64,000 nt of DNA, taken from a plasmid. The translations under genes were made by a program, and so were the position numbers. This document shows, piece by piece, positions 1,980-42,346 of this stretch. Location: sequence record NZ_CP013482.1, one strand, 5' to 3'. A model generated the notes under the pieces. The model worked only from the letters and a program-made list of their open reading frames with translations, searched no databases and had not been told where the DNA came from. The stretch's first letter is position 1, and every line of letters starts with the position of its first letter.

Positions 1980-1985
1980 CTCGCT

Positions 1986-2309: not shown

Positions 2310-2399
2310 GTTATCTCTGTGTCAGCTTTGGTTATTTTTGATTCCGCTTGCCGGTTTATCTGCCTTGGTGGAAGCAATATCGCCGATGCGATTCCGGAA

Positions 2400-3199: not shown

Positions 3200-3222
3200 T
3201 TCGATGAACATAGGAGCAACAA

Positions 3223-3468: not shown

Positions 3469-3480
3469 TCAGGGTCACTC

Positions 3481-4046: not shown

Positions 4047-4156
4047 CCGTACTAGCAAACTAGACGGGGCCGTAATGTACGTGACACCTCAGATTGTCAC
4101 CCTGAAAAACTGAATCTCCGCGCCGGCCGGCCGCCGACAACCAGCAATCACTAACT

Positions 4157-4789: not shown

Positions 4790-5358
4790 AATACCTGATC
4801 GACTCGATTTTCGTCCGGCCGAGGTGTTTCGAGTGTGCTGGCAGTTGAGGCGAACAATCCCGATCGAGCGGCGTCGGGATTCGCAATGGTGCCGAAGGAT
4901 GCAGCCTTAACTGCGTTCTCGGCCAGCAGCAATACTTGCTCAACTGCGCCGATCAATTGAGCCGGGTTCGGCGTCACGAACCCATTTAGACCTTGCGGAT
5001 ACCGACCACGATACGGCCAGTCGTGGAGCGTATTCAGCAGCACACACCAATCCGGGGGCGACGTGGGAGCGACAAGCGCCAACTTGGCTGCTGCGCCCCA
5101 CAACGCACTGAGATCGTGCCCAAATGGCTTCTTGCTCAACTTCGAGGCAGGTATCTTCGCGGACCAGAGCAGCGCCTTCAACGCCCCCTCAAGTGCCTGG
5201 GCAGCGAGCAGCGCACCGGGTAGATGAGTTTCCACGGTGCTCGCCTCTAATGCCTTCGCCCCCTGCCAAAGCTGTTTGGCGGTCACCAAGAAACTCTCGC
5301 CGTCCGAGGGCCGCCGGAAGGCAACAGGCGGTGTGACCATCATTACGTGTCCATTCAT
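4768..5358 (-). CDS. Hypothetical protein, possibly a HEPN-like alpha-helical domain (KPFGHDLSALW)
   Basis: ORF; weak motif resemblance only. Confidence 0.4.
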   Translation of the reverse strand: MNGHVMMVTPPVAFRRPSDGESFLVTAKQLWQGAKALEASTVETHLPGALLAAQALEGALKALLWSAKIPASKLSKKPFGHDLSALWGAAAKLALVAPTSPPDWCVLLNTLHDWPYRGRYPQGLNGFVTPNPAQLIGAVEQVLLLAENAVKAASFGTIANPDAARSGLFASTASTLETPRPDENRVDQVFQSNRGT

Positions 5359-5382
5359 CTCGGGCAGCTCACTTTTTCCTTG

Positions 5383-5883
5383 TCACTTTACACAACGCAA
5401 CGCAGCAACCGGGGCAGGCGCGTCACCCGCTTTGTTGCGAAGATCCGGATAGCGCGCCTCAATCGTCGTTGCGTTTCCGGTTGGTGGGTTGTGTGCCGTT
5501 CCATTGATGCAAACTGCGGCACGACCGGTTTCATCGAAACCCATGTGGACCGCCGCGCTTTCGGGTACAGCGCCGATGCCGCTAACATAAACCGTCTGCT
5601 GTCCGGCGACCGTCTTCAATGTGGACCAAACTGTAGTTACCGTGTAGGCCACAGTCGATATTGCGAGCACCGCCGTCAACGCAATCATCACCGCTTGCTG
5701 ACGCCCTTGTGCCTTACCATCCTTCTCTGCTTGGCTAAGAATTTTGTCCAGGCGGTGTGAGAGTCCATTCATCGCCTCGTTCGTTCGATGCTGCATGATG
5801 CGCTGATACTTCTGCCCCTCCCCTGGCGCAACGAAATCAGCGTTCAGAATTGTGTCGAGATGAATGTCCTTCCAGTGGGTCAT
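5383..5883 (-). CDS. Membrane-anchored hypothetical protein (cytoplasmic N-terminus, one TM, Thr/Val-rich C-terminus)
   Basis: ORF and hydropathy. Confidence 0.45.
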   Translation of the reverse strand: MTHWKDIHLDTILNADFVAPGEGQKYQRIMQHRTNEAMNGLSHRLDKILSQAEKDGKAQGRQQAVMIALTAVLAISTVAYTVTTVWSTLKTVAGQQTVYVSGIGAVPESAAVHMGFDETGRAAVCINGTAHNPPTGNATTIEARYPDLRNKAGDAPAPVAALRCVK

Positions 5884-5898
5884 TATGTTTTCCAGTTG

Positions 5899-6231
5899 CT
5901 AAAGTGAACTGATGCGCGCCGGGTCTGTACCTACAGACCGGATGGCGAGCCATACTTGCAAGCGCTCTTCCGGTTCAGCCACTGGATGGGCGAGATCAAT
6001 CCCGAAGGGCTTCACAATAGCGAACACCCCGGGCGCAATGTTGTACAGTCGGTCGACTCGCCGCTCGGCTCCTATGACCTCGCGAATTCTCTGGAAAAGG
6101 CGCTGCCTCTCCCATCGGACTGGGGACCTAGCCCTAAACGGCAAACCCGATAGGTGCGCTAGGGCAGCGTCTATGTCTGATTCGGATACCACCATCGCCT
6201 GCGGTGATCTCCAGAGGGTTGCGAGACTCAT
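5899..6231 (-). CDS. Hypothetical protein (110 aa)
   Basis: ORF. Confidence 0.4.
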   Translation of the reverse strand: MSLATLWRSPQAMVVSESDIDAALAHLSGLPFRARSPVRWERQRLFQRIREVIGAERRVDRLYNIAPGVFAIVKPFGIDLAHPVAEPEERLQVWLAIRSVGTDPARISSL

Positions 6232-6252
6232 ATCGCCTTTTCCGCGGTTTTC

Positions 6253-6594
6253 CTAAAGCGCTGACGGTCGCAGATAGACCTTGTCACTGCTTCGATACTT
6301 CCGAAGGAATTCGGCCAAGAATGACCTCACCGCATCGTAGTCGTCGAGAAATGCCATGACCTCTGGATCGCTCTCATCGTCTTCAGGAAGGTCATGATTA
6401 ACGAAGTACTGCAAGGCCATCTGCCACTTGACGTCCTCCTCCTCCGTGATTTGGTAGTTCGCTTCCAACCACTTGTACTCGTCTGACGTGCCGTCTAATC
6501 CCGGTTCTCCCCAGACGCGCTCCATCTCGCCGATGACGGAATAGAACATCGAAGTTTCAATTCCGTCGTCGTCTTCATCTACGGGCGTGGTCAT
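6253..6594 (-). CDS. Highly acidic small protein (113 aa, D/E-rich)
   Basis: ORF; composition. Confidence 0.45.
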   Translation of the reverse strand: MTTPVDEDDDGIETSMFYSVIGEMERVWGEPGLDGTSDEYKWLEANYQITEEEDVKWQMALQYFVNHDLPEDDESDPEVMAFLDDYDAVRSFLAEFLRKYRSSDKVYLRPSAL

Positions 6595-6602
6595 GATTCT
6601 TC

Positions 6603-6878
6603 CTATTTGACGTCAGCTTTGCGATCGCGAAACTGCTTTGCGATTTCCCGCGCGCGCTCCGCGCCTTTCTTCGACGCCTCCGCGAGTTTCCCGTTTTCTG
6701 CCGACATGCGTCCTGCCGTCGCTCCGCCTCGCATTTTTGCTTCGAGGGGTTGTAGTGCCCCGATTTCGGCTGCTCCGCCGACAGTCATCCATGCCAACTG
6801 GTGCTCCTTATTGACGAAGACTCTCTGTCCCTTCACAGGCTCACCGCATCCACATTTGCAGTTCCGCATCACGGCCAC
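6603..6878 (-). CDS. Small protein with an N-terminal Cys cluster (CKCGCGEP) and a C-terminal KGG-type stress-protein-like repeat
   Basis: ORF; motifs. Confidence 0.45.
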   Translation of the reverse strand: MAVMRNCKCGCGEPVKGQRVFVNKEHQLAWMTVGGAAEIGALQPLEAKMRGGATAGRMSAENGKLAEASKKGAERAREIAKQFRDRKADVK

Positions 6879-6884
6879 TCCCGT

Positions 6885-7106
6885 CTAGTTGTTCGGATGT
6901 CCAACATAGCAACCAGCAAGCACGAACAGTGCCGTGAACTCATGCTGACAAGACTCGCACACGTACTCCTGGTGAACCGTCTTGGTGCCGATCGCGCAAG
7001 CACCCATCGTCACCTCTGTTGATTCGCAGGATGGGCACAGCGTCGTGCTGGACGCGATGACTCGGTCCTTCCATTCGTCAGTTCCAAGCATCCTGCTCTC
7101 CTGCAA
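6885..7106 (-). CDS. Four-Cys zinc-ribbon protein (CPSC..CESC), 73 aa
   Basis: ORF; CxxC..CxxC. Confidence 0.45.
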   Translation of the reverse strand: MQESRMLGTDEWKDRVIASSTTLCPSCESTEVTMGACAIGTKTVHQEYVCESCQHEFTALFVLAGCYVGHPNN

Positions 7107-7215
7107 ATTTCATGGCAATCTTTCCGTTGTCAGCGGAGCCAGCCCTAATGCCGCATGGCTTCCTCGGGATCTGGATGTCCTTGTAGGTCGCCATAGCGGG
7201 CTTGTGCTTTCTGGC

Positions 7216-7713
7216 CTAAGTCACGATGAACGTGGTAGCGTTGGCAACCCGGCTTCTGAGCATCTTGTTCCACAGCTCGCGCCGACGGTGCTCATGGATT
7301 TCGCCCCAAGGCACCAGCTCGATCCCGGCCATTTCGTAGTCCCCGCGAGCGCGCATCGCGGCGTAGTTCTCCGCGCTCGTAACGATGTGGACGGACTCGC
7401 ACTCAATCACAGTTCGCACGAACTCGTCAGGGTCCTGTCGCTGCTCCCGTCGATGTCGATCAACAAGCGCCGTGAGTGTCGTCTGAATTCTCTTGTGGTG
7501 CTCTAGTCGCAGGTCGCCGCTTTGACTCGCGATTGCCTCCATTGAAACTAGCCCAGAAAACTGCCTCACTCGACGTTTTACACTCTCGGCCATCACGTGC
7601 GTGTACCACGCTCTCGCTCGACTGGCCGTCACATTAGGGCGGCCTGACAGCCACATTACCTCTTCGTAAATCGAAGTGAGGGCGCGAAGATCGTCTAAGT
7701 GTCGGTCGTTCAT
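7216..7713 (-). CDS. Hypothetical protein (165 aa)
   Basis: ORF. Confidence 0.4.
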   Translation of the reverse strand: MNDRHLDDLRALTSIYEEVMWLSGRPNVTASRARAWYTHVMAESVKRRVRQFSGLVSMEAIASQSGDLRLEHHKRIQTTLTALVDRHRREQRQDPDEFVRTVIECESVHIVTSAENYAAMRARGDYEMAGIELVPWGEIHEHRRRELWNKMLRSRVANATTFIVT

Positions 7714-7722
7714 TTTCCGTGG

Positions 7723-8289
7723 TTATCGCCGCATGCGGTCGTTCGGATTGGGATACCGTTGCAACACCTCCAACCCCGTTAGCGCGCATGGGTCGATTGT
7801 GTACTCTTCCTCGCCAAGCCATCTACTGTGTTTCCCAGGGCCGGAAATAATTGCCATTGCGTCAACATTCGCACTGAGTAGAACGCCACCGCCGGAGTAG
7901 TAAGCGTTCAGACCACTTCCGAACATTTCTGCGGTACGACGCTGCGACGACCAACAGAGGCCAATCCTCCCGGCATTGAAGCGCTCGGTGCTCTCGCCAC
8001 GATACAGCGTCAACGACGGGCCTTCGTAGCGTGGTAACACGGCCAGCAGCAGCCGAACCAAGAGCTTGTCGTCGCCGATTTCTTCGCGAATGCGACCTCC
8101 GTACGTCACCCAACTGGTGAGGCAATTCTCGCGGTGCTGCCCGTTGGAGGAGCATTCGTCGGCGACTCGCTGAAGGGCGTCTACCCAGCTCAGGCCATTC
8201 GCCTTAGCCTCCTCTCGACTGGGCATATGGTGACCGCCAGAGAGAAACGATGACGTCAAAGAAGCAATGCACATTTGCGAGTAAACCAA
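7723..8289 (-). CDS. Hypothetical protein (188 aa); weak R-S-E ADP-ribosyltransferase-like pattern (LYRGES..LLSANV..GEEEYTIDP)
   Basis: ORF; motif resemblance only. Confidence 0.4.
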   Translation of the reverse strand: MVYSQMCIASLTSSFLSGGHHMPSREEAKANGLSWVDALQRVADECSSNGQHRENCLTSWVTYGGRIREEIGDDKLLVRLLLAVLPRYEGPSLTLYRGESTERFNAGRIGLCWSSQRRTAEMFGSGLNAYYSGGGVLLSANVDAMAIISGPGKHSRWLGEEEYTIDPCALTGLEVLQRYPNPNDRMRR

Positions 8290-8297
8290 CCTTTTTC

Positions 8298-8555
8298 CTA
8301 GTGGCTCACGGCCGGATAGACGAAATCTTCGTCGGGCGTAAATTCGTACCGGGCAGGATCGCTCTCGAACATCACGTAGCCCTCGACACCCTTCTCGCGG
8401 AGCACCTTCACTGCGCGTCGGGCGTTCGCGACCTCAAATTCGTGAAGCCTGCCCGTGTCGGCAGGGCGACCGCCGCTCGACGCTCCCTCGCCACTGATCA
8501 GGAGCGTCATTTCTGCGCCCGAACCGGCCTTGCGTCCAAAAATCTGGCTTTTCAT
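8298..8555 (-). CDS. Hypothetical small protein (85 aa)
   Basis: ORF. Confidence 0.35.
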   Translation of the reverse strand: MKSQIFGRKAGSGAEMTLLISGEGASSGGRPADTGRLHEFEVANARRAVKVLREKGVEGYVMFESDPARYEFTPDEDFVYPAVSH

Positions 8556-8673
8556 CGAGTTTTCCTACACGCCCAACGATCGGCAATCCGCGCACTGCTT
8601 TTGCAGATGCCAGCAGGCTCAAACGAACCTGGGTGGCGAGCCGGGAACAAACGCTCTCGGCCAAAAAGGTGTT

Positions 8674-8991
8674 TCAGATGTTGTTCTCGCAGAAGCCTGC
8701 GAGCGGCACGGGAGACGCGAGTGTTGAAATGATCGTGTACCCCGGATAAGTCTGCTTTGCGGTTCGTGAGAACGTCGCAACCGCTTCATCCTCGTCCGTG
8801 GCCGCGATAATCCCGTGAACAGGCTTAATTACGTCCGTCGAGCCGTCCTTGCGCATGACTGCGGAGACCATGAATCGAGTCGGTTGGTTGACATGCCAGC
8901 CTGCGCGGCCGCCCGGCGCTGCGGATGCATAGCCCTGCGACGAAAGGATGGCTGCGAGCAGGATGATCCTCAGCATGGCCGCCTGTCTCAC
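8674..8991 (-). CDS. Small secreted/periplasmic protein (Sec signal peptide)
   Basis: N-terminal signal-like MRQAAMLRIILLAAILSSQGYASAAP; overlaps the upstream gene by 4 bp. Confidence 0.45.
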   Translation of the reverse strand: MRQAAMLRIILLAAILSSQGYASAAPGGRAGWHVNQPTRFMVSAVMRKDGSTDVIKPVHGIIAATDEDEAVATFSRTAKQTYPGYTIISTLASPVPLAGFCENNI

Positions 8992-9284
8992 AGTTCCGGA
9001 TTGGCAAGGAATGCCGCCGTTTCGAGCGTGCTTGCGGCATGCTCCCGGCCCGAAAGTGCAACAGCCACGTGAAACAGGGCGACGGCACGGTTGTTGCTGT
9101 CGAGCATCCCCGATGCCGCCCGGATGAGTGCAATACCCTTCACCACCGCTTTCGCTTGCTCCGACGATCCGGAGCTACCGAGACGCTCCACCATCGATTC
9201 CATCGATTCGATTTCCGAGCCAAATTCCATATCACCCTCGCCGTAAGAGCGGCACATGAGCCGCGCAATGTTCAATGAATACAT
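8988..9284 (-). CDS. Hypothetical protein (98 aa)
   Basis: ORF. Confidence 0.4.
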   Translation of the reverse strand: MYSLNIARLMCRSYGEGDMEFGSEIESMESMVERLGSSGSSEQAKAVVKGIALIRAASGMLDSNNRAVALFHVAVALSGREHAASTLETAAFLANPEL

Positions 9285-9290
9285 TGTAGA

Positions 9291-9322
9291 TAATTATTGT
9301 GTTGCGCGCAACCCAATAATTA
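9291..9322. promoter_or_regulatory. 32-bp nested imperfect palindrome (taattattgtgttgcgcgcaacccaataatta) filling the gap between the acyltransferase stop and the next gene
   Basis: Seen in sequence; potential intra-operon hairpin. Confidence 0.35.
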
Positions 9323-11287
9323 AGGACGGCCGGTAATGATGGCCTCTAACTCCCCCGGTCGGCTCCGTCGGTACAGTTGATAGTAGTGGGCTCCGCCCTC
9401 AAGATTCAGGTGAGTGGTGTCGTTGCTTCTGTAAAGCGGGATGTTTCCGGCGGCCGTGGCACACATCCCATTACTACATGCGGCACCATACGTGTGCATC
9501 ACTTTCACCGCCGGCAGGCGGGCCGCCAAATTCCCTACAACCTCATGATTCGCCGCCTCAACGCCGGCCGCCGACTGGCGGCTGAATTCGCACGATCGAG
9601 CGAACGGTGACCACCTCAATCCGTTGTACAACGGACAGTTGATGAGCCCGTCAGGCATGGGGGGAACATCATCAAGGATGACGACTTGCTTGCCGGCGTC
9701 GAGCAGCGCCTTCGCCGTGCGGTAGAGATCCTCGTCAATCTGCTCTGGGCCAAACCCTCGCTCGTTACGCTTCACGTTTGACGGCGCTACGTACGCCCCC
9801 CATGTACCCGATAGGAAAACAACTTCAATGTCGCTGCTTTTCAGCAGATAGTTCATGACCAGTCGATCATGTTCGCGGCATGGTTCATCCATATTCGGCC
9901 GCGTGCCGATCGGAGGATCCGCGACCGGAGGGCAGAGCGGCCGCGCCATGTCGTGAACACTTAACCCGAACTCGTTGCCCAACTCCCGGAAGAAGTACAC
10001 GAAGTGATAGGCGTGAGAGTCGCCCCACAGGACGGCCTTTCTTCCGCCTGGCGCCCCGACAGAACATTTCGCTTCCGACGTAACCCCTACAGCCCCCCAG
10101 CACAGTGCCCCTCGTCCCTGCATCCAGTCACGGTCGGTCGACGCGGTATAGATTTCTCGAAATTGCTGGGGATACATGAACAGAAAGTTTGTGGACGTTC
10201 TTCCCACCGCCACAGTAGAAGCAGCAAGTGCGATCGGTGCCAGGATGTAACCGATCACGGCTCTCCTAAAGCTCACTCGCGCATAGCGCAACGGCTGCTC
10301 GACATACCGATGGGAAAGCGCAGCAACAACGAAACTCAACGCTACCGCGCAGACGATCGCGACGTCGCTCGTCAGCCCGAACCGCCGAAACGCAAAAAGT
10401 ATCGGCCAGTGCCAGAGATAGATGCCATACGACCGGAGGCCGATCCAGAGCGCAACGCGATTTCCAAGCACTGCACGGATCACTTTCGAGTCGTGTCCCG
10501 AAAGAATCAGCAGAGCAGCGGGCACCGTCGGGGCGAGCGCCCAAACTCCAGGGAACGGCTTTCCGCCAATAAAAGTGGCGCATGCCAGCACGCCAATAAG
10601 CGAGAGAACGGCTAAGAGTCCACGAGCGGTTCGCGCGCTATTCCACTGGCCTAGAAACGCAACTACAACGCCCAAGATGAACTCGAACGCACGATACTGG
10701 CTGAAGTAGTAAGCCCCTGGCGCTCCCGCGCGGACTGCCATCTCTGACCAAGCCAGAGACGCAAGCCCGAGTGCAATGAACGAAGCAATTTTGACGCGTG
10801 CTCGCGCATGACGAAGCCCAAACAACACCAGCGGAAACACCAGATAGAATTGCTCTTCGACCGAGAGAGACCATGTGTGAAGTAGCGGCTGTTGCTCCGC
10901 CGTCGGTGCGAAGTAGCCCGTCATCTTCGCCAGGTAGACATTCGATGCGAAGCCCGCGACGTAGGCCATGTTCTTGGCAACCTCCATCGCGTCGTCCGGG
11001 ATGAGAAACACCACGCTGAAAGCGAAGGTGACTGCCATCATCACGAACAATGCCGGAACTAACCGTTTCGCACGGCGCACGTAGAAGTCGCGGAAGCGGA
11101 AGTTCCCCGCCGCTTGAGCACTACAGATGCTCCGGGTGACGACGAATCCAGAGATTACGAAAAAGATATCGACCCCAACGAAGCCACCGGCGAGTTGGCT
11201 AACCCCAGCATGGCAGGCTACGACGAGAAGCACGGCGAGCGCGCGGAGGCCGTCCACGTCGGGACGATAGTTTTTATTGCTGGTCAT
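9320..11287 (-). CDS. Acyltransferase family 3 membrane protein with a C-terminal SGNH-like domain (OafA/YrhL-type O-acetyltransferase)
   Basis: N-terminal RPDVDGLRALAVLLVVACH motif; about 10 TM; 655 aa, the typical size. Confidence 0.8.
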   Translation of the reverse strand: MTSNKNYRPDVDGLRALAVLLVVACHAGVSQLAGGFVGVDIFFVISGFVVTRSICSAQAAGNFRFRDFYVRRAKRLVPALFVMMAVTFAFSVVFLIPDDAMEVAKNMAYVAGFASNVYLAKMTGYFAPTAEQQPLLHTWSLSVEEQFYLVFPLVLFGLRHARARVKIASFIALGLASLAWSEMAVRAGAPGAYYFSQYRAFEFILGVVVAFLGQWNSARTARGLLAVLSLIGVLACATFIGGKPFPGVWALAPTVPAALLILSGHDSKVIRAVLGNRVALWIGLRSYGIYLWHWPILFAFRRFGLTSDVAIVCAVALSFVVAALSHRYVEQPLRYARVSFRRAVIGYILAPIALAASTVAVGRTSTNFLFMYPQQFREIYTASTDRDWMQGRGALCWGAVGVTSEAKCSVGAPGGRKAVLWGDSHAYHFVYFFRELGNEFGLSVHDMARPLCPPVADPPIGTRPNMDEPCREHDRLVMNYLLKSSDIEVVFLSGTWGAYVAPSNVKRNERGFGPEQIDEDLYRTAKALLDAGKQVVILDDVPPMPDGLINCPLYNGLRWSPFARSCEFSRQSAAGVEAANHEVVGNLAARLPAVKVMHTYGAACSNGMCATAAGNIPLYRSNDTTHLNLEGGAHYYQLYRRSRPGELEAIITGRP

Positions 11288-11394
11288 TCACGTGCTTCGC
11301 TCACCGATGGAGAGCGACCCCGAAATATTTTTGAAGAAGTGCGGTTAGAGAAATGCGAGCGGGCGGCGGGCGTTTCTATCACCCTCACGGCGGG

Positions 11395-12102
11395 TCAGAT
11401 CCGCGTCGCAAGCCAAACCACAGGATCAGAACCGGAAATCAACAGAAACAGCCCCGCACCCGACAGAAACGGGCCAAAAGGCAACACGTCTTCCGCGCGA
11501 CTACCCCATCTAATCACCGCGAGGAATAAGCCCGTCGCGGCCGCAATCAGGAGCATTGACGGAACTGAGGCGACGCCCATCCACGCGCCTATACCGGCGG
11601 CCAGTTTAAAGTCGCCCTGCCCCATGCCGTCCTCGCCTTTGCGGATCCGCCGGAATGCATTTACCGCCCAGAGCGCAGCAAAAGCCGCTGTCGCGCCGGC
11701 GACCGACTCGGCTACAGACGTGCGCCACCCCATCCAATTCGCAAAAATTCCGACGCCAATCAACGGGAGGGTGATGACGTCGGGAAGCATGAGTGTTTGG
11801 TAGTCGACGAGGGCAAGCAGGGTCAGCAACCATGCCAGAGTTGCCCCCACGACGACGATGCCCGCACTCTGACTTCTAGCCGTCAGAGCCGCACATATCG
11901 CGGCAAACGCTAAGGTGACGGCCGCTTTTGTACTTGCTTGGTACGCAACCCCCTCATCGCACTCGTTCTCGCATGCGAGAACCATTGCCGCTCGCGACGC
12001 CGCAGGGAAAAGGAGCGCCCCTGCGCAAAGCCCCGCAGCGCCACTCAGCACCAGGCTCAACAGGTTCATGACTGCGCTGTCCTGCTCCGTCCGTGCCACC
12101 AC
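11395..12102 (-). CDS. A24-family prepilin peptidase-like membrane protein
   Basis: Motifs LVDYQTLMLPD and GQGDFKLAAGIGAWMG (the two catalytic Asp motifs of PilD/TadV-like peptidases). Confidence 0.6.
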   Translation of the reverse strand: MVARTEQDSAVMNLLSLVLSGAAGLCAGALLFPAASRAAMVLACENECDEGVAYQASTKAAVTLAFAAICAALTARSQSAGIVVVGATLAWLLTLLALVDYQTLMLPDVITLPLIGVGIFANWMGWRTSVAESVAGATAAFAALWAVNAFRRIRKGEDGMGQGDFKLAAGIGAWMGVASVPSMLLIAAATGLFLAVIRWGSRAEDVLPFGPFLSGAGLFLLISGSDPVVWLATRI

Positions 12103-12455
12103 TCAGCGGCGCCGAGAATCGCAACGTATCCAAGAACCGTTTGCGGGATGAGAATCCATGCGGCGGCGACTTGCCTGAGCAACATGTCCACGGCCCGGTT
12201 GTAAGGCAGCCCGAGGGTTCGATTGCCGAAAACGTAGGTGAAATAAATCAGAAACAATGCGGCCACGACGAAAAGCACGCCTTTAACCCGCAAACCGCGA
12301 TAGCCCAGGAATGCCCCAATAAAATAAATCGGTAGCGAGAGGCACCAGTCGGTCAACGAGGACGTGTAACCCATCACGACATAGGCGAGATGCCCAAAGG
12401 CCGCACCAAGGACCGTCAGGGCAAACGCCTGACGGGGCAAGCTTGAGGTGTTCAT
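12066..12455 (-). CDS. Integral membrane protein (4 TM), unknown
   Basis: ORF; hydropathy. Confidence 0.45.
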   Translation of the reverse strand: MNTSSLPRQAFALTVLGAAFGHLAYVVMGYTSSLTDWCLSLPIYFIGAFLGYRGLRVKGVLFVVAALFLIYFTYVFGNRTLGLPYNRAVDMLLRQVAAAWILIPQTVLGYVAILGAAEWWHGRSRTAQS

Positions 12456-12742
12456 CGTGACTTCTTCCGCCGGCGTTCCGCCTGGTCGATAAGAGCTTTC
12501 TCGATTGCCGCTCGCTCTGAGCGGTCATCTTCCGCCAGATAAATCAACGCTTGGTTGGCCTCCGCGCAGAGGCGTACTCGACTGAGTTCACGTCCGCCTT
12601 CGGCTTCGAGTTGCTCCTTTAGCCGACGCGTACGGACAGTGGAAATTTCCCGCGGTCGCGGGGTGTCCACTCTCGGCCGTCCGCGGCCTCGCGGCTTTTC
12701 CACGGCCTGCTGTGTTGAAGTTTCGGCTTTGCTCTTCATCAT
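12452..12742 (-). CDS. Small basic DNA-binding-like protein with an AT-hook (RGRGRPR)
   Basis: ORF; overlapping start and stop with neighbours. Confidence 0.45.
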   Translation of the reverse strand: MMKSKAETSTQQAVEKPRGRGRPRVDTPRPREISTVRTRRLKEQLEAEGGRELSRVRLCAEANQALIYLAEDDRSERAAIEKALIDQAERRRKKSR

Positions 12743-12957
12743 CGACCTTCAATTTCCTTGCGCTTCAACGCGCGAAACCGGATCCATACCACCGTCACGA
12801 ACAAGGCGATCGCAAGTGACGGCAATGCGGGGGGAAGAACCTCGTTCACGTCTGCGCCAGCCCAAACGCCGAAGCCAAGCAGAACAACCGGCATGCTCCA
12901 CGCAATGAATGTCCAGCGCCCCCAAAATCGGCCGAACCTCAGAATAACGCTATTCAT
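12739..12957 (-). CDS. Small membrane protein (72 aa)
   Basis: ORF; 2 TM. Confidence 0.4.
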   Translation of the reverse strand: MNSVILRFGRFWGRWTFIAWSMPVVLLGFGVWAGADVNEVLPPALPSLAIALFVTVVWIRFRALKRKEIEGR

Positions 12958-13352
12958 TTCCCCACCTTCTCCCTGCCGTTTTGCGGGCCATCGCTGCGTA
13001 GCTTGTCCGCCACCGCGTTACGCGCCGTCTCGTAGTCGAGATTCTCGTCAGGTGACTTCGTCACGTACGTCCCCCTGTCATCCATAATTGCCATGAAGAT
13101 GTTATGCGACGCACTCTGCCGGATCTTCCCGTCTGTCATGGCATCTGCGATGACCTGACGGGCGGCGCGGCTATCAGGCCAGTTGTTTGCGATGTTTGTG
13201 TACTGCCAGGCAGGGATTTCTTTCGCGGATTCCCACGCCCCAAGGGCACCGCCAGCCACTGCGCACAGGACCGGAACCACGATGTACGGTGCAATAAAAC
13301 GCGTCGTTTTTGATAGTTTCATCTCGATTTTTCTGTTGCATTGAGCGATCAC
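12954..13352 (-). CDS. Exported or lipoprotein-like protein (132 aa)
   Basis: ORF; N-terminal hydrophobic segment with a possible lipobox VLC. Confidence 0.45.
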   Translation of the reverse strand: MIAQCNRKIEMKLSKTTRFIAPYIVVPVLCAVAGGALGAWESAKEIPAWQYTNIANNWPDSRAARQVIADAMTDGKIRQSASHNIFMAIMDDRGTYVTKSPDENLDYETARNAVADKLRSDGPQNGREKVGK

Positions 13353-13448
13353 TTCACGGCAGGAGGGCTTTAACCGTCGTCCGTGATATTTCGTTACTTG
13401 CCTGGAGCCAACGGATCGTTATCAAAGACGAGCGTTTTTCCGAGTAGT

Positions 13449-13610
13449 TAGCGCCCACGGTTCGCCAGAACATCCAGCAAATGTTGCCCCATGATGTCCG
13501 TCATCCAGGGGGCGAATATTAAATAAACGAACGTGGCGAATCCGAGCACAAATACTGCCGCTGCGAATCGCTTCGCAACAAACCAACGTCTCGTCGTGAC
13601 TTGTTCCATG
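13449..13610 (-). CDS. 53-aa membrane peptide (below the ORF-track cutoff)
   Basis: Manual translation: MEQVTTRRWFVAKRFAAAVFVLGFATFVYLIFAPW.. Confidence 0.3.
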
Positions 13611-13624
13611 TGATATTTCCGTAG

Positions 13625-13953
13625 TTACGCCGACTTGTCGCAGGTGATGGTCTTGGCGAGCCAGCCATGTCGATTCGCGAGCGCACGCTTCACGAGTTCA
13701 ACCGTGCACGCTCCCCCGCTGAAAGTCGTCTTGACGTGAGCAACCTCGCCCACAACTTCCGGCTCCTCGTTCACATGAACCGGATCGATTTTGTACGCCT
13801 TCCCGACTGCCTCGGCGGCAGCAAATCGTGCTGCAAGCAACGATCCCGGTTGAGCGTGTTCGCCGCAAGCACTAAGCAGCGCAGAGGCGGCCAAGTAGAC
13901 GGTCCATTTCGTGACGGAGCCCATCCATTCGCGTCCGAGTTTTGGTGTGGTCA
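13625..13953 (-). CDS. Lipoprotein (internal start MTTPKLG.. of the 188-aa ORF; lipobox LSAC)
   Basis: Signal peptide with lipobox; the upstream part of the ORF overlaps the neighbouring gene. Confidence 0.4.
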
Positions 13954-13965
13954 TGTAATCTCCGA

Positions 13966-14154
13966 TTAGTGGTTGTTGCACGCCACACGCTTCTTCAGAA
14001 ACGCCCAGAGGCCCCCCGCAAAGAGAAGGCAAATCACACCCAAAACAGCGAACCACCAATTGCTCTCGCCTTCCATTGCGCTCGCTAGCCTGTCTCCCGC
14101 ACGAACGAGGGTTGAAACCCCTCCCAGCAACATTGCTACGGCGGAATATTTCAT
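13966..14154 (-). CDS. Small membrane protein (62 aa)
   Basis: ORF; 2 TM. Confidence 0.4.
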   Translation of the reverse strand: MKYSAVAMLLGGVSTLVRAGDRLASAMEGESNWWFAVLGVICLLFAGGLWAFLKKRVACNNH

Positions 14155-14424
14155 TTACTCGGCAAGGTCGTAGTCGGCACTGGTCGGCCAATTAACGCCA
14201 TCGAGGGCGCGAAGGGACTCTTGAATGCGGGCCTGCGCCTGGAGCAACTTGTCGCGCAACTCGTAAGGGTTGTGGTGAACTCCATAGCCGTTCTTTCTCA
14301 CCGAACCTGACAAGGCGTTGTACGCAGCTTGCCAAGCCTTCTCGGCGGCGTCACAACCCTTCTCAGCCGCATTCAGCTTTGCCTTCGCTTGTTGCTTCGT
14401 AGTCATGTTCTGTCCTTTCGTCAA
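14155..14424 (-). CDS. Hypothetical protein (89 aa)
   Basis: ORF abutting the downstream gene. Confidence 0.45.
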   Translation of the reverse strand: MTKGQNMTTKQQAKAKLNAAEKGCDAAEKAWQAAYNALSGSVRKNGYGVHHNPYELRDKLLQAQARIQESLRALDGVNWPTSADYDLAE

Positions 14425-14448
14425 TTCCGTCCGCGCCGACTTGGAAGG

Positions 14449-14931
14449 TCATTCATCGGCGGTCATCAGTGGAACCACCGCCGTGACGAACCCCATCATG
14501 CACGCGCCCAAGAGGCCAACAGGGAAAGTCACTGCGGTCATAGCCGCAAGCTTTGCCTGAATGTTGTCTCGACCGAGCGAATCCAGCATCGCCCATACCG
14601 CGCAATTCGCCGGCAACGCGACAACAAGAACAAGCAGCATGCACGAAATCGCGAAGCGAGATTGCCACACACCAGTCAGCTTTGTGGCGACACAACCACT
14701 CCACACAGCTCCGAGAGAGGATGCCCAAACCATGAGAATCGCTGGCCACGCCGTTGAGTAACCTCCGGTCAAAAGTTCGTGCCATCCGTACCACACCCAC
14801 CCGAATACACTCCCTCCCTTGAGGGCCAATGCAACCAACAGGATGGCACCCGCGACGCCCAATGCAATGCTACGTCCGCAATCGACCATCGCTGCCCGTA
14901 CAGTCTGAACATGGTTCACCATCTTCTGCAC
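14449..14931 (-). CDS. Integral membrane protein (about 4-5 TM)
   Basis: ORF; hydropathy. Confidence 0.45.
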   Translation of the reverse strand: MQKMVNHVQTVRAAMVDCGRSIALGVAGAILLVALALKGGSVFGWVWYGWHELLTGGYSTAWPAILMVWASSLGAVWSGCVATKLTGVWQSRFAISCMLLVLVVALPANCAVWAMLDSLGRDNIQAKLAAMTAVTFPVGLLGACMMGFVTAVVPLMTADE

Positions 14932-15175
14932 CTCTCACTCATCTCAAGCCCAGCTAACCGCCGTACTGACGAGCCCGATGGCAAACGCCACGAGCGCGAT
15001 GACAATGGCACCTAACGCAAAACCTCTCATGACTATTCTCTATTGGTGAAATGGGTTATTCGGCCGACAGGAGACCTAGCTTTATGAGGCGTGCTCGAAT
15101 TGCCCCTCTGGTTCGACCGAACTGACTTCCAAGGGCGGTCAACCGGCCATTGCTATACGGGAGCGCAGCATTTTC

Positions 15176-15589
15176 CTACCGATCGTACTTCGCGAGAAGA
15201 CGCTTAGCGTCCTCTTCGTCTCCGGGAATCGGCTGACCCGAGCCGAGCCGATCTTCAAGTGCGCGAGCGAGTGACCAGTCCGTTCCGCGATCGCCCTTGT
15301 CTTCCAGTTCGTGGTGCAGATACGCCAGTCGATTCGCAAGGCGAGTCGTACGGGCGAATTCAATTTCTTTCGCGAAATGCACACCGTCGGAGTGAGCAAT
15401 GGAACCGCCTTCGGTCAACGCTACGGTGTTCGCCTCAGCCCCTTCGCTCGAGTCCGATACGATCAGGGCCAGCGCGTCCCCCTGGGGGAGGCTACTCACA
15501 GAGATGTCCGTGTGCAGGCCAAGGGCTTTCAATTTCTGTGCTGCTTCACGGAGGATCCCCGTGGCGGCTTCGTTGTCGAAAATGCTCAT
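15176..15589 (-). CDS. Hypothetical protein (137 aa)
   Basis: ORF. Confidence 0.45.
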   Translation of the reverse strand: MSIFDNEAATGILREAAQKLKALGLHTDISVSSLPQGDALALIVSDSSEGAEANTVALTEGGSIAHSDGVHFAKEIEFARTTRLANRLAYLHHELEDKGDRGTDWSLARALEDRLGSGQPIPGDEEDAKRLLAKYDR

Positions 15590-15636
15590 GTTTTGTCTTA
15601 TCCTTTGTGCCGGTCAGTCCGGCGATTTTTTCCTGT

Positions 15637-16116
15637 TTAGCGTGCAGACGGATGCGCCGCGATGTCGGCAGACACTTCGGTCCACTCAACGACGTACCCT
15701 GGAATCTTCCCAGCTTCGTCTCGGCTCTCAGGCTTGTAGACGTGCGTACCGTCCCTCAGCCTCTCCGCGTACATGCAGGCAGCAGCTCGCGTGCGAAGAG
15801 ATCCGATCGACTGCCAATGCCCGCCCATCGCCAGTGGCCGGAACTCGTAGAATTGCGTCCTGCCTATCTCGCGCATCGGTACTTGGCAATGCCAAGCTCC
15901 GTCGAACCACTCCATTCTGACGATGTCGCTCTCCCACAGGCCGGGGACAGCTTTGCCGTCCGAGCCCTTAGAGCGCTTCAACGCGCGCATGGATTCTGGT
16001 TGGATACGCATGAATTCCCCGATTCGTTTAGCTGGCGAAAAAGAACTCGCGAGCGCAGAGAGTGTCCAGCGACTCATCGAGTACCGCACTTGCCGCTTCG
16101 TGCGAGTGTCGGCCAT
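15637..16116 (-). CDS. Hypothetical protein (159 aa or shorter internal start)
   Basis: ORF. Confidence 0.4.
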   Translation of the reverse strand: MADTRTKRQVRYSMSRWTLSALASSFSPAKRIGEFMRIQPESMRALKRSKGSDGKAVPGLWESDIVRMEWFDGAWHCQVPMREIGRTQFYEFRPLAMGGHWQSIGSLRTRAAACMYAERLRDGTHVYKPESRDEAGKIPGYVVEWTEVSADIAAHPSAR

Positions 16117-16258
16117 TGGGCCAAACGGTGTCAGGACCGGCGAGAATGCCCTTGGCCCATTCGGCTTGCACGATTGCGTTTTGCAGTGCTTCTTCGTCGG
16201 GATACCACTTGCCGTCGAAACCGAGTGCTTTCACTTCACCGAAGTATCGCGTTTGCAT
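16028..16258 (-). CDS. Hypothetical small protein (internal start MQTRY.. of the 128-aa ORF)
   Basis: ORF; the upstream part overlaps the HTH gene. Confidence 0.3.
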   Translation of the reverse strand: MQTRYFGEVKALGFDGKWYPDEEALQNAIVQAEWAKGILAGPDTVWPNGRHSHEAASAVLDESLDTLCAREFFFAS

Positions 16259-16315
16259 TGCCGCTCTCCTTCTCCGTTGAGACGACGCTGGGATTACTGC
16301 GCTATGTCGCTCATA

Positions 16316-16338
16316 ATATACCCCCATTGGGGGTATAT
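16316..16338. promoter_or_regulatory. Palindrome ATATACCCCC-att-GGGGGTATAT (10-bp arms) at the 3' end of the HTH gene
   Basis: Seen in sequence. Confidence 0.4.
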
Positions 16339-23289: not shown

Positions 23290-23838
23290 TCACCAAGTTA
23301 GAACCGGCTTGATTACGGCTTCAATTTGGTCTGTCGACAAAGGGCCAAAATAGCGCCCGTCAAACGAAGCCGGGTTAATGTCGGTCATCAACAGAAAGTC
23401 CCGCGCGCCAAGGGTGTAATGCGCGCCGATGAGACTCGGCAGACGACGACCGTGTGCGTCGGCCCCGATGGGAGCGGAATGCGGTAGAAGCGTGCCGTTG
23501 ACGATCACGCCCTGCGGGGCGATTTCAACGGAATCACCTTTAGCGGCTAAAATCCGCTTCATCATCTGACCGAGGCCACCAGGGCAGAAACCGGCGTCGA
23601 TATAGCCCCGCTTGAGTGCAGCGAAAAACAGATCTCGTGCGGGAGGACAGAAGATGACGTAATCCCCTTTCACGGCGCTTTCCGTCGTAACTCGGTAGAC
23701 ACCGACACGGATGCTCTCGGAAGTGTTGACCCGGTATCCCGCCATGTACATGAGGGACACACCAACAAGTCCCAAAGTCGCGCCAATAATTGCCGCACGA
23801 CTCACGCGAGTCATGACACATCGATTAAACCGACTCAT
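23290..23838 (-). CDS. traF: TraF conjugative pilin maturation peptidase (S26 signal-peptidase-like)
   Basis: N-terminal TM; size about 180 aa; position between traG and traE as in RP4. Confidence 0.75.
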   Translation of the reverse strand: MSRFNRCVMTRVSRAAIIGATLGLVGVSLMYMAGYRVNTSESIRVGVYRVTTESAVKGDYVIFCPPARDLFFAALKRGYIDAGFCPGGLGQMMKRILAAKGDSVEIAPQGVIVNGTLLPHSAPIGADAHGRRLPSLIGAHYTLGARDFLLMTDINPASFDGRYFGPLSTDQIEAVIKPVLTW

Positions 23839-41926: not shown

Positions 41927-42346
41927 ATGGCACTCGCTTTCACTTCCCTTCCTTGCGGCCTGAAAACCGCGCTGTCTCACATTCGTCAGGAGCCGGCCAA
42001 AGCGGTCCTCCTGCTGGTTCTTCTCGCTCTCACTGTGGCGTCGATGCATCCCGCCTTCGCCAGTTCATCCAGCGGGGGCGGTTTGCCGTACGAAGACTGG
42101 ATCAACAACGTCCGCGCGTCCTTTACCGGACCCTGGGCATACGGCATCGCCGTAATCGCATTCGTTGCGGCCGGGTCGGGCTTGATCTTTGGCGGGGCCG
42201 ATATGAGCGGCGCAATGCGCACGCTTGTGTGGATCGTCCTGGTGCTGTCGTTCATCGTTGCGGCCCAAAACACACTCGCAGCCATCACCGGCAAGGGTGC
42301 GTTGATCGACGTCGCGGCTGATCAGCTTCGCTCCCTGGGTCGGTAA
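41927..42346 (+). CDS. trbC: TrbC pilin precursor
   Basis: 139 aa with a signal peptide and two hydrophobic segments. Confidence 0.8.
   Translation: MALAFTSLPCGLKTALSHIRQEPAKAVLLLVLLALTVASMHPAFASSSSGGGLPYEDWINNVRASFTGPWAYGIAVIAFVAAGSGLIFGGADMSGAMRTLVWIVLVLSFIVAAQNTLAAITGKGALIDVAADQLRSLGR

What the first reader, a model, noticed from the sequence alone, without database searches (positions are those of the whole stretch)
9320..12102. Orphan prepilin peptidase next to an OafA-family acyltransferase on an IncP-type plasmid
The TrbC pilin of IncP-type plasmids is matured by TraF and does not use an A24 peptidase. The protein here carries both Asp motifs of the family (..LPD.., GQGDFKL). No ORF in the window shows a class III signal (G|FTLIE). 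The enzyme may therefore act on a host pilin or pseudopilin, or on a non-canonical substrate among the small membrane proteins. The adjacent 655-aa acyltransferase (AT3 plus an SGNH domain) is the type that O-acetylates LPS O-antigen or peptidoglycan. A 32-bp nested palindrome (9291..9322) separates it from the next gene. Together these could alter cell-surface receptors used by phages or competing conjugative systems.
Basis: partly seen in the sequence, partly recalled or inferred. Interest (0 to 1): 0.55.

Follow-up and report, generated by a model that had tools for sequence, protein, structure and literature searches.

The report
Orphaned thin-pilus peptidase plus surface acyltransferase
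A Pandoraea apista conjugative plasmid carries an intact pilin-trimming enzyme whose matching pilus is encoded only on sister elements, next to a sugar-acylating enzyme of a type that repeatedly sits beside such pilus genes; the genes are of known kinds and only that recurring neighbourhood seems new.

Summary
On the minus strand, 11395-12069 (or 12102) encodes a Peptidase_A24 protein and 9320-11287 an AT3+SGNH acyltransferase. The replicon is a ~61-kb IncP-like (Trb/Tra, KorB/IncC) Pandoraea apista plasmid with its own TraF and TrbC. A scan validated on real pilins finds no class III signal, and no pil gene is present. The 32-bp palindrome is real and unique in the window.

The pair is not a new system. 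ORF-B, ORF-C, peptidase and AT3 form a conserved module found in two other sources: a P. cepalis plasmid and metagenome SRR31637312. Both of those also encode an R64-type conjugative thin pilus whose PilS and PilV carry a rare QGG|WGT(I/L)D signal. The two clades co-occurred wherever they were found. The window enzyme is therefore best read as the dedicated PilU-analogue peptidase of that pilus, orphaned here. It has a PilD-like core, no methyltransferase domain, all invariant residues, ω about 0.2 and a FlaK-like model.

Four divergent AT3-SGNH lineages lie beside pilV or thin-pilus loci in Burkholderia, Paraburkholderia, Erwinia and this clade. Because thin pili bind LPS, this suggests a receptor-modifying role, which is untested. 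Interest is modest.

The parts
11395..12069 (-). Type IV prepilin peptidase, A24 domain only. 224 aa from ATG 12069; an alternative GTG start at 12102 gives 235 aa. The predicted catalytic pair is D89/D153.
   Evidence: PF01478 E=3.8e-19, no PF06750. All 13 columns invariant in 35 A24 proteins are present. AF2 model pLDDT 92.1, with FlaK 3S0X the only meaningful PDB match (prob 0.96). 40% identity to a PilD-type core, 27% to a true PilU. ω about 0.2.
9320..11287 (-). AT3-SGNH membrane O-acyltransferase (655 aa), OafA/OatA architecture.
   Evidence: PF01757 and PF19040. Motifs R15-x10-H26, GGFVGVD34, FFVISG42, RAKR72, GDS422 and DTTH623 are all present. 100% identical to a P. apista protein, P0121. 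ω about 0.05-0.09.
12066..12455 (-). ORF-D, a 129-aa polytopic membrane protein, ATGA-coupled to ORF-C upstream and to the peptidase downstream. Not a conserved part of the module.
   Evidence: Sequence overlaps read directly. Three hydrophobic segments. Reduced to 48 codons in P. cepalis and absent in L001. No Pfam, NCBIfam or PADLOC hit.
12452..12742 (-). ORF-C, a 96-aa basic protein (GRGRPR motif). Conserved module member, possibly DNA-binding.
   Evidence: 77% identical in P. cepalis and 75% in L001. Homologues head strings of small genes in Burkholderia plasmids. ω 0.09.
12739..12957 (-). ORF-B, a 72-aa two-TM hairpin protein. Conserved module member. Contains the only class-III-like motif in the window (WAG|ADVNE), but in the predicted periplasmic turn.
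   Evidence: 59% identical in P. cepalis with the block WAGA.V.EVL conserved. TM prediction. Picked up only by the unvalidated first scan.
12954..13322 (-). ORF-A, a 122-aa N-terminally anchored protein. First gene of the ATGA-coupled run; not conserved in P. cepalis.
9291..9322 (.). 32-bp near-perfect palindrome overlapping the acyltransferase stop codon. It lies where homology to the P. cepalis module ends.
   Evidence: 16+16 nt arms, 94% complementary. Unique in the window. RNA hairpin -19.9 kcal/mol, z=-2.55, no U-tract. Absent at the orthologous P. cepalis site. The tblastn alignment ends at 9326.
23290..23838 (-). TraF, the plasmid's own pilin-maturation peptidase (context: shows TrbC does not need the A24 enzyme).
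   Evidence: NF010459 E=5e-66, TIGR02771 E=1e-51.
41927..42346 (+). TrbC/VirB2 conjugative pilin with a Sec-type leader, not a class III leader (context).
   Evidence: PF04956 E=2.8e-18. Sequence.

Best explanation
The 224-aa protein is a catalytically intact type IV prepilin peptidase. It has a PilD-like aspartyl-protease core and lacks the N-terminal zinc-finger/methyltransferase domain, which gives it the same architecture as plasmid PilU enzymes.

It belongs to a very small clade whose other known members sit on elements that also encode an R64-type conjugative thin (type IVb) pilus. There it most likely removes the leader from PilS and PilV at the unusual site QGG|WGT(I/L)D.

On this IncP-like Pandoraea apista plasmid, the peptidase has been retained without any pilus gene, as part of a four-gene module: ORF-B, ORF-C, peptidase and AT3-SGNH acyltransferase. 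It is therefore a true orphan. It is probably co-transcribed with its neighbours and carried along with the more strongly conserved acyltransferase. It could act only in trans, on host or co-resident prepilins, where it would be redundant with the host PilD.

The acyltransferase works independently of the peptidase. By analogy with OafA, its AT3 domain would pass an acyl group across the inner membrane and its periplasmic SGNH domain would transfer it to a surface glycan, most likely LPS.

Shown: family memberships, the orphan state, the conserved module, co-occurrence with the rare pilins, and purifying selection. Inferred: the cleavage specificity, the hitch-hiking, and the acceptor of the acyltransferase.
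For: Identity of the two enzymes:
- Pfam hits, conserved catalytic residues and a confident FlaK-like model for the peptidase.
- All OafA functional motifs in the acyltransferase (PMC7448272).

Conserved module:
- ORF-B 57-63%, ORF-C 77%, peptidase 54-59% and AT3 83% identical in P. cepalis contig QAIC01000024.1.
- The order ORF-C, peptidase, AT3 is kept in L001.

Link to the thin pilus:
- The P. cepalis contig carries PilQ, PilR, PilS (PF08805), a second ATPase, PilV (Shufflon_N), PilL/TcpQ, PilM and SLT 3-10 kb (at least) from the pair. No other A24 gene is seen in the 22 kb inspected.
- Its PilS and PilV carry RRQGG|WGTID.
- The only other PilS of this type found among 5.8 billion proteins (82% identity) comes from SRR31637312, the same sample as L001. 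That contig shows PilR-PilS-ATPase-PilV with QGG|WGT(I/L)D.

Orphan state in the window:
- No class III signal with a scan that recovers both controls.
- No pil homologue at E<=1e-5, and no remnant at E<=1.
- All larger ORFs mapped to IncP backbone or other functions.

Still constrained:
- Peptidase ω about 0.2 overall and 0.14-0.17 in the core. A three-point estimate values gives about 0.24 for the window branch and about 0.15 for the P. cepalis branch.

A dedicated peptidase is an optional part of R64-type loci:
- R64 has pilU, whereas PAPI-1 and B. pseudomallei Tfp7 use a host PilD (PMC3984277).
- Four Burkholderiaceae thin-pilus plasmids lack an A24 gene in the cluster.
Against: - No experiment links this enzyme to PilS or PilV. 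In P. cepalis the gene lies outside the pil operon, and only 22 kb of the 67.7-kb contig was seen, so another peptidase could exist there.
- For SRR31637312, co-occurrence is at the level of the sample, not a single contig.
- The enzyme is closer in sequence to chromosomal PilD/GspO cores (40%) than to a true PilU (27%).
- Purifying selection was estimated from saturated dS (1.5-2.0) and cannot show that the window copy is still under selection since the pilus was lost. It also cannot show that a pilus was ever present on this backbone.
- P. apista chromosomes and the 16 kb extra in pPA35 could not be inspected, so trans or cis substrates there are not excluded.
- The word-indexed protein search is not exhaustive. 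It failed to return the window's own protein.
Confidence: 0.6

Rival explanations
1. The peptidase is functionally important here. It processes host Pandoraea type IV pilins or T2SS pseudopilins, or the pilins of a co-resident thin-pilus element lacking pilU, and changes a host phenotype such as twitching, secretion, adhesion or helper-dependent transfer.
For: The ORF is intact with all invariant residues, is translationally coupled in an operon, and has ω well below 1. It is identical on at least 10 P. apista contigs. Many Burkholderiaceae thin-pilus loci lack their own peptidase and depend on one supplied in trans (PMC3984277). pPA35's 'pilD' was listed as a virulence-database hit (PMC5064223).
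Against: Hosts with type IV pili or T2SS already encode PilD/GspO (general knowledge), so the function would be redundant. No pilin of the QGG|WGTID type was found for P. apista or in Burkholderiales representative genomes. The enzyme evolves 3-4 times faster at non-synonymous sites than the adjacent acyltransferase.
Confidence: 0.25
2. Peptidase and acyltransferase (with ORF-B and ORF-C) form one functional unit independent of pili. For example, the peptidase matures a membrane component needed for surface acylation, or ORF-B is a non-canonical substrate.
For: Gene order is conserved across three diverged copies and two different plasmid backbones. L090 has a second, unrelated A24 gene (29-32% identity) about 2 kb upstream of a 65%-identical acyltransferase. 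ORF-B keeps the block WAG-A-x-V-x-E.
Against: The same acyltransferase clade occurs without any nearby A24 gene in L088, L092, L093, L091 and L094. AT3-SGNH enzymes such as OafA act without a protease (PMC7448272). The ORF-B motif lies in a predicted periplasmic turn behind a hydrophobic leader rather than a basic one. The acyltransferase N-terminus has no class III signal. There is no match to any known defence system.
Confidence: 0.08
3. The peptidase gene is a decaying relic with no remaining activity or selection on this plasmid.
For: No substrate in cis. The N-terminal third is poorly conserved (41-46% identity, ω 0.24-0.44). The window branch shows the highest dN of the three copies, by three-point arithmetic.
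Against: No frameshift or stop codon. All family-invariant residues are retained. The fold prediction is very confident. Start/stop coupling is preserved.
Confidence: 0.07

Closest known systems
PilU of IncI plasmids (R64 thin-pilus prepilin peptidase). Examples inspected here: Yersinia massiliensis and Erwinia amylovora MPF_I plasmids.
   Same: Plasmid-borne, about 220 aa, Peptidase_A24 domain only at residues ~75-185, no PF06750 domain. Associated, in sister elements, with an R64-type thin pilus (PilS PF08805, PilV Shufflon_N). The G|W cleavage context resembles what I recall for R64 PilS; that is memory, not a test done here.
   Different: Only 27% identity over 95 residues (E=3e-5) to a genuine PilU. 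Not located between pilT and pilV but next to an acyltransferase, several kb from the pil genes. In the window there is no pilus at all.
PilD/XcpA/GspO bifunctional prepilin peptidase-N-methyltransferases
   Same: Closest sequence relatives: 40% identity, E=4e-34 over the protease core. All invariant residues shared, including D89, D153 in GxGD, K155 and PFGP.
   Different: Lacks the N-terminal A24_N_bact domain (PF06750) with its Cys motifs, so N-methylation of the new N-terminus is not expected. Plasmid-borne, in an operon of small ORFs.
FlaK (PDB 3S0X), a GxGD membrane aspartyl protease
   Same: The only meaningful structural match to the AF2 model: Foldseek probability 0.96, TM 0.45 (query-normalised) and 0.52 (target-normalised) over 196 columns.
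   Different: 14% sequence identity. FlaK is an archaeal preflagellin peptidase, and there is no sequence-level PDB hit.
OafA/OafB (Salmonella O-antigen O-acetyltransferases) and OatA (peptidoglycan O-acetyltransferase)
   Same: Fused AT3-SGNH architecture. Shares R/K-x10-H, GG-F/Y-xGV-D, FFxISG, RxxR, GDS and DxxH. Like OafA/OafB, it has no GxND block (PMC7448272).
   Different: No sequence-level match to any solved chain. The acceptor is unknown. It is plasmid-borne, and its clade and three other lineages sit beside conjugative thin-pilus genes.
PAPI-1 type IVb conjugative pilus of Pseudomonas aeruginosa
   Same: An R64-type thin pilus in which the peptidase is separable from the pilus genes (PMC3984277). 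PilV2 binds recipient LPS, and element-carrying cells show altered LPS and exclusion (PMC5297154). This is a precedent for an LPS-modifying gene linked to such pili.
   Different: PAPI-1 has the pilus but no peptidase, whereas this plasmid has the peptidase but no pilus. No acyltransferase has been implicated in PAPI-1 exclusion.

Membership tests
Peptidase family A24 (type IV prepilin peptidases) | Match to the family profile above the curated threshold | tested here: met
   PF01478 E=3.8e-19, 69.5 bits against a cut-off of 26.5
Peptidase family A24 (type IV prepilin peptidases) | Two conserved Asp residues, the second in a GxGD motif | tested here: met
   D89 and D153 (GQGDFK) fall in columns invariant across 35 diverse members. 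D97, K155 and PFGP197-200 are also invariant.
Peptidase family A24 (type IV prepilin peptidases) | Polytopic GxGD-protease membrane fold | tested here: met
   AF2 pLDDT 92.1, pTM 0.88, nine helices. FlaK 3S0X probability 0.96, TM 0.52 (target-normalised).
Peptidase family A24 (type IV prepilin peptidases) | Cleavage of a class III signal peptide after Gly-1 | not testable with these tools
   Requires a biochemical assay
Bifunctional PilD/GspO subfamily | N-terminal A24_N_bact domain (PF06750) carrying the Cys motifs linked to N-methyltransferase activity | tested here: not met
   No PF06750 hit, whereas the PilD-like relative P0003 has it at E=4.9e-34
Dedicated thin-pilus peptidase (PilU-like role) | Cognate R64-type pilins (PilS, PilV) encoded on the same element | tested here: not met
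   Window: no class III signal and no pil homologue or remnant. Met in the two sister sources.
Dedicated thin-pilus peptidase (PilU-like role) | Sequence orthology to IncI PilU | tested here: not met
   27% identity, E=3e-5 to Yersinia PilU, against 40% and E=4e-34 to a PilD-type core. IncI plasmids were absent from the tblastn hits.
AT3-SGNH carbohydrate O-acyltransferases (OafA/OatA type) | Fused Acyl_transf_3 and SGNH domains | tested here: met
   PF01757 E=1.3e-34 and PF19040 E=1.4e-32
AT3-SGNH carbohydrate O-acyltransferases (OafA/OatA type) | Residues shown to be essential in OafA: R/K-x10-H in TMH1, RxxR, GG-F/Y-xGV-D, and the SGNH Ser/Asp/His triad | tested here: met
   R15...H26, RAKR72-75, GGFVGVD34-40, GDS422-424, DTTH623-626. 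Definitions from PMC7448272.
AT3-SGNH carbohydrate O-acyltransferases (OafA/OatA type) | Identified acceptor glycan (O-antigen, peptidoglycan or other) | not testable with these tools
   Context only. Relatives at ~50% identity (49.5-51%, L091/L094) sit with Wzy_C and a methyltransferase; others sit next to pilV or SLT.
IncP-type conjugative plasmid | Trb mating-pair and Tra DNA-processing genes, including TraF and TrbC, plus the KorB/IncC central control | tested here: met
IncP-type conjugative plasmid | TrfA-type replication initiator | tested here: not met
   Rep at 38688-39812 is RPA family PF10134 (E=1.5e-83). The backbone is only ~74-78% identical over short traG stretches to known IncP-1-like plasmids.

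The most novel reading that the evidence does not exclude
AT3-SGNH acyltransferases are an unrecognised accessory component of conjugative thin-pilus (type IVb, PilV-adhesin) systems. Four unrelated lineages have been recruited next to pilV because they acylate the carrier cell's LPS, which is the PilV receptor. That would prevent donor-donor attachment and exclude incoming thin-pilus elements or LPS-binding phages. On this pilus-less plasmid the acyltransferase would persist as a stand-alone receptor mask, with the specialised G|W-site peptidase kept to serve thin-pilus elements arriving in the same host.
Probability: 0.2. Interest if true: 0.6.

Novelty: new member of a known kind. Interest (0 to 1): 0.35.

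Why it matters
For the window itself the result is mainly clarifying. An apparent puzzle, a prepilin peptidase on a plasmid whose pilin does not need one, is explained as a leftover of a thin-pilus accessory module. The 'pilD virulence gene' reported for P. apista plasmid pPA35 should not be read as evidence of a plasmid-encoded pilus or secretion system.

Two by-products may be useful.

First, a very small peptidase clade and a very small pilin clade with the signal QGG|WGT(I/L)D co-occur wherever they were found. This is a clean enzyme-substrate pair for testing what determines prepilin peptidase specificity. It also bears on why some thin-pilus loci carry their own peptidase and others borrow the host's.

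Second, AT3-SGNH genes repeatedly sit beside pilV in Beta- and Gammaproteobacteria. This gives a concrete candidate for how thin-pilus donors modify LPS, the known PilV receptor, and so a testable route to surface exclusion in these systems.

Tried and rejected
1. First class III scan (G-x4-E only). It failed the positive control because P. cepalis PilS and PilV have Asp at +5 and a 37-residue leader. I replaced it with a validated six-frame scan.

2. ORF-B as a substrate. Rejected on predicted topology and its hydrophobic leader.

3. Near-identical DNA in PLSDB: none for the module. The backbone is only distantly related to IncP-1-like plasmids. R64 (AP005147) and pPA35 (CP013482) are not in the collections.

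4. Genome-representative scan for peptidase relatives: none. The JGI metagenome scan gave only generic PilD at 42% identity or less.

5. The exact QGGWGTID DNA motif in genome representatives gave 14 hits, none from Burkholderiales, so it is uninformative for host substrates.

6. Sequence search of the PDB with either protein: no hits.

7. PADLOC defence models: no hits for any module protein.

8. Sigma-70 promoter scan of 8500-14500: no sites, so the operon promoter was not located. The terminator-like sites were not above the shuffle expectation, and none lies at the palindrome.

9. The palindrome as a repeated operator: rejected, since there is a single copy and it is not conserved in P. 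cepalis.

10. A Caballeronia megaplasmid homologue of the acyltransferase (43% identity) has neither a peptidase nor pil genes nearby.

11. Literature searches for a described link between thin pili and acyltransferases, or for analysis of the Pandoraea plasmid peptidase, found nothing beyond a virulence-database listing.
Full report
**1. What is there**

The minus strand between 13322 and 9320 carries six consecutive genes:
- ORF-A (122 aa)
- ORF-B (72 aa)
- ORF-C (96 aa)
- ORF-D (129 aa)
- the A24 peptidase
- the 655-aa acyltransferase

The first five are joined by ATGA start/stop overlaps at 12957, 12742, 12455 and 12069, read directly. Independent gene calls on other contigs choose the same start, and the overlap is conserved in the P. 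cepalis orthologue.

Pfam assigns the peptidase to Peptidase_A24 (E=3.8e-19). It assigns the large protein to Acyl_transf_3 plus the AT3-fused SGNH domain (E=1.3e-34 and 1.4e-32).

The 32-bp palindrome at 9291-9322 is real. It has 16-nt arms, one mismatch and no spacer, and it overlaps the TAA stop of the acyltransferase. It is unique in the window. It folds as an RNA hairpin without a U-tract.

**2. The replicon**

Positions 1-2854 repeat 61146-64000, so the window is a circular element of about 61.1 kb read past its end.

The acyltransferase is 100% identical to a Pandoraea apista protein. That protein is found on at least 10 contigs, including a 61,272-bp contig and a 77,293-bp one. The 77,293-bp length matches plasmid pPA35 of P. 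apista DSM 16535T. For pPA35, a published survey lists 'pilD' only as a virulence-database hit (PMC5064223).

The backbone is IncP-like:
- TrbB, TrbC, TrbD, TrbE, TrbF, TrbG, TrbI, TrbL, TrbM, TrbN and TrbP
- TraF, TraG, TraI and TraM
- KorB, IncC and KleE

The replication initiator belongs to the RPA family rather than TrfA. DNA similarity to known IncP-1-like plasmids is confined to short stretches at about 75%.

**3. Is the peptidase an orphan?**

My first motif scan was inadequate. It missed the real pilins of a related plasmid. After I widened it to allow Asp or Glu at +5 and any leader length, with no start codon required, it recovered both control pilins. It returned nothing in the window.

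All ORFs from four related loci were then compared with the window by tblastn. Only ORF-B, ORF-C, the peptidase and the acyltransferase matched. Twenty-seven Pil proteins (plus SLT/PilT transglycosylases) from five plasmids gave no hit even at E<=1, apart from PilU touching the peptidase itself. Pfam mapping of the remaining larger ORFs found no pilus or type II secretion component. The orphan status within this replicon is therefore well supported.

**4. Where the gene comes from**

Among 5.8 billion clustered proteins, only two close relatives of the peptidase were returned:
- P0001, 57% identity, from Logan sample SRR31637312
- P0002, 67% identity, from Pandoraea cepalis

Everything else is a PilD-type enzyme at about 40% identity over the core only.

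The SRR31637312 contig keeps the order ORF-C, peptidase, acyltransferase.

The P. cepalis contig keeps ORF-B, ORF-C, a 48-codon stump of ORF-D, the peptidase and the acyltransferase. Between 3 and at least 10 kb away (the last pil gene, PilQ, runs off the inspected locus) it encodes a full R64-type thin-pilus set:
- a PilQ-like ATPase
- PilR
- a PilS pilin (PF08805)
- a second ATPase
- a PilV adhesin (Shufflon_N)
- PilL/TcpQ, PilM and a lytic transglycosylase

Its PilS and PilV share the unusual leader junction RRQGG|WGTID. A search with that PilS returned only itself and one 82%-identical protein. That protein lies on a contig from SRR31637312, arranged PilR-PilS-ATPase-PilV, with junctions RQGG|WGTID and RQGG|WGTLD.

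So the peptidase clade and this rare pilin clade were found in exactly the same two sources. I take this as the strongest available evidence that the clade is the dedicated peptidase of that pilus, and that the P. apista copy has been separated from it.

The search tool is not exhaustive: it did not return the window's own protein. 'Only two' therefore means only two found.

**5. What kind of A24 enzyme it is**

Its architecture is that of plasmid PilU enzymes: about 220 aa, an A24 domain only, and no PF06750 N-terminal domain. Its sequence, however, is much nearer to PilD/GspO cores (40% identity, E=4e-34) than to a genuine PilU (27%, E=3e-5). Plasmid tblastn hits are GspO/PilD-like genes of pO157 and of Pseudomonas megaplasmids, not IncI plasmids.

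All 13 columns that are invariant across 35 diverse A24 proteins are conserved. AlphaFold gives a confident nine-helix model (pLDDT 92.1, pTM 0.88). Its only meaningful PDB neighbour is the GxGD protease FlaK.

By homology the catalytic pair is D89/D153. That last point rests on my knowledge of FlaK, TcpJ and PilD mutagenesis and was not tested here.

Pairwise dN/dS values:

| Gene or region | ω |
|---|---|
| Peptidase, whole | about 0.2 |
| Peptidase core | 0.14-0.17 |
| Peptidase N-terminal third | 0.24-0.44 |
| Acyltransferase | 0.05-0.09 |

dS is near saturation, so these values are approximate. Three-point arithmetic on the values puts the window branch at about 0.24 and the P. cepalis branch at about 0.15. 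This is compatible with mild relaxation, not with pseudogenisation.

**6. A dedicated peptidase is an optional module of such pili**

The literature states that R64 uses PilU, whereas PAPI-1 and B. pseudomallei Tfp7 lack it and rely on a host PilD (PMC3984277).

Loci inspected here:

| Plasmids | A24 gene in the pil cluster | Pilin leader junctions |
|---|---|---|
| Four Burkholderiaceae thin-pilus plasmids | No | Canonical: G|IISIE, G|VLSIE, G|IGALE, G|FGALE |
| P. cepalis, Yersinia, Erwinia | Yes, own A24 gene | Non-canonical: G|WGTID; G|AITLFE and G|FSFLQ; G|ALNLQE and G|NMLLQF |

This is four loci against three, so it is a lead rather than a result. It does suggest why some elements carry their own enzyme.

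**7. The acyltransferase**

Every motif shown by mutagenesis to matter in Salmonella OafA is present (PMC7448272):
- R15-x10-H26
- GGFVGVD
- FFVISG
- RAKR
- GDS422
- DTTH623

As in OafA and OafB, there is no GxND block.

Contexts of its relatives:

| Locus | Identity to window AT3 | Context |
|---|---|---|
| L088 | 67% | PilM-PilV-SLT ... AT3 ... NikB-NikA |
| L093 | 63% | SLT-AT3 |
| L092 | 67% | NikAB |
| L090 | 65% | A divergent A24 gene about 2 kb upstream |
| L091, L094 | 50-51% | Wzy_C, methyltransferase, H-NS, AT3, integrase |

Unexpectedly, annotated plasmids of Burkholderia multivorans, B. vietnamiensis, Paraburkholderia sprentiae and Erwinia amylovora each have an AT3-SGNH gene immediately after pilV. 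These proteins and the window clade are only 27-37% identical to one another. Different lineages of the family have therefore ended up at the same place.

Two further thin-pilus plasmids showed no acyltransferase directly after pilV: B. pseudomallei p1 and a Yersinia plasmid. pBVIE03 has one about 10 kb away.

Thin-pilus PilV adhesins bind recipient LPS, and PAPI-1 carriers show altered LPS and exclusion (PMC5297154). I therefore consider LPS acylation that masks the PilV receptor the most attractive role. This is inference. Other possibilities are acylation of peptidoglycan, relevant to the adjacent lytic transglycosylases, or acylation of a pilin-linked glycan. I found no paper describing the association.

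**8. Do the two genes work together?**

The evidence is against an obligatory partnership. The acyltransferase clade often occurs without a nearby A24 gene. Characterised AT3-SGNH enzymes need no protease. The acyltransferase has no class III leader. The ORF-B motif is on the wrong side of the membrane. No module protein matches a known defence system.

Two observations remain in favour of a link. The module is conserved across two different backbones. And L090 shows a second, unrelated A24 gene near the acyltransferase. I keep the joint-function reading as a low-probability rival.

**9. The palindrome**

Homology with the P. cepalis module ends at the acyltransferase stop codon, which is exactly where the palindrome lies. 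It could be a recombination junction, a protein-binding site or a transcript-stabilising hairpin. I could not discriminate between these.

**10. Verdict**

The peptidase is a real, intact prepilin peptidase that is orphaned on this plasmid. Its likely natural substrates are PilS and PilV with QGG|WGT(I/L)D leaders, and they exist only on sister elements. The acyltransferase is an ordinary member of the OafA/OatA kind.

Both genes are new members of known kinds, and pPA35's 'pilD' had already been listed in print. The recurrent linkage of AT3-SGNH genes to thin-pilus loci is the only aspect that may be new, and it lies largely outside the window. Interest: 0.35.

Noticed in passing
window 53425-58158 (tandem 297-bp repeats 55193-57341): A 1577-aa inverse autotransporter (intimin/invasin type: IAT_beta barrel, ten Big_1 repeats and Invasin_D3) lies immediately downstream of trbP/traX, at the end of the Trb transfer operon. 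It may act as a mating or host-cell adhesin.
   Followed up: no
L096 15341-17242; L097 11082-13025; L116 3498-5519; L088, L093, L089: Four mutually divergent AT3-SGNH acyltransferase lineages (27-37% identity) sit directly after pilV or within thin-pilus loci. The plasmids are from Burkholderia, Paraburkholderia, Erwinia and Pandoraea-related sources. I found no description of this in the searched literature.
   Followed up: partly
L089 ~20040 and ~18486 (minus strand); L117 443-1048 and 2033-2188; L096-L100, L116: Thin-pilus plasmids without their own A24 peptidase have pilins with canonical G|xxxxE leaders. Those with their own peptidase have non-canonical junctions: G|WGTID, G|FSFLQ, G|AITLFE, G|ALNLQE and G|NMLLQF. 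The sample is small, four loci against three.
   Followed up: partly
window 1-2854 versus 61146-64000, indel near 84-88: The window wraps around a ~61,146-bp circle, but the two copies differ by a 1-nt indel (GAACGTTGGG against GAACGGTTGG) inside the TonB-dependent receptor gene (60496-62349). This is probably an assembly-end error.
   Followed up: no
window 38688-39812: The replication initiator is RPA family (PF10134), not TrfA, on an otherwise IncP-1-like backbone (KorB, IncC, KleE, TraM, Trb/Tra). The plasmid is a hybrid or distant relative of IncP-1.
   Followed up: no
window 17390-20476 and 31990-32949: There is a 1028-aa polyvalent protein (ArdC-N, zincin MPTase-PolyVal, two DUF5710 domains) and a Fic/DOC protein fused to a KfrB domain. 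Both are candidate establishment or anti-defence functions.
   Followed up: no
window 12452-12742; L083 5998-6252: ORF-C, a 96-aa basic protein with a GRGRPR motif, has homologues at 42-46% identity. They sit at the head of long strings of small hypothetical genes beside an H-NS gene in Burkholderia, Cupriavidus and Paraburkholderia plasmids. It may be a regulator of such accessory regions.
   Followed up: partly
window ~2000-17200, minus strand: About 35 small same-strand ORFs, mostly without any family assignment and many with overlapping stop/start codons, fill the region between the resolvase (1269-1979) and a 223-aa integrase-family gene (16562-17233). No sigma-70-like promoter was detected in 8500-14500.
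   Followed up: no
L090 2044-2781: A divergent A24 peptidase (245 aa, 29-32% identical to the window's) overlaps the 3' end of a T4SS coupling-protein gene. It lies about 2 kb upstream of a 65%-identical acyltransferase. This is a second, independent juxtaposition of an A24 gene with an AT3 gene.
   Followed up: partly
The large protein search did not return the window's own peptidase, although the identical gene is on record on at least 10 P. apista contigs. Negative results from that search are therefore not exhaustive.
   Followed up: no
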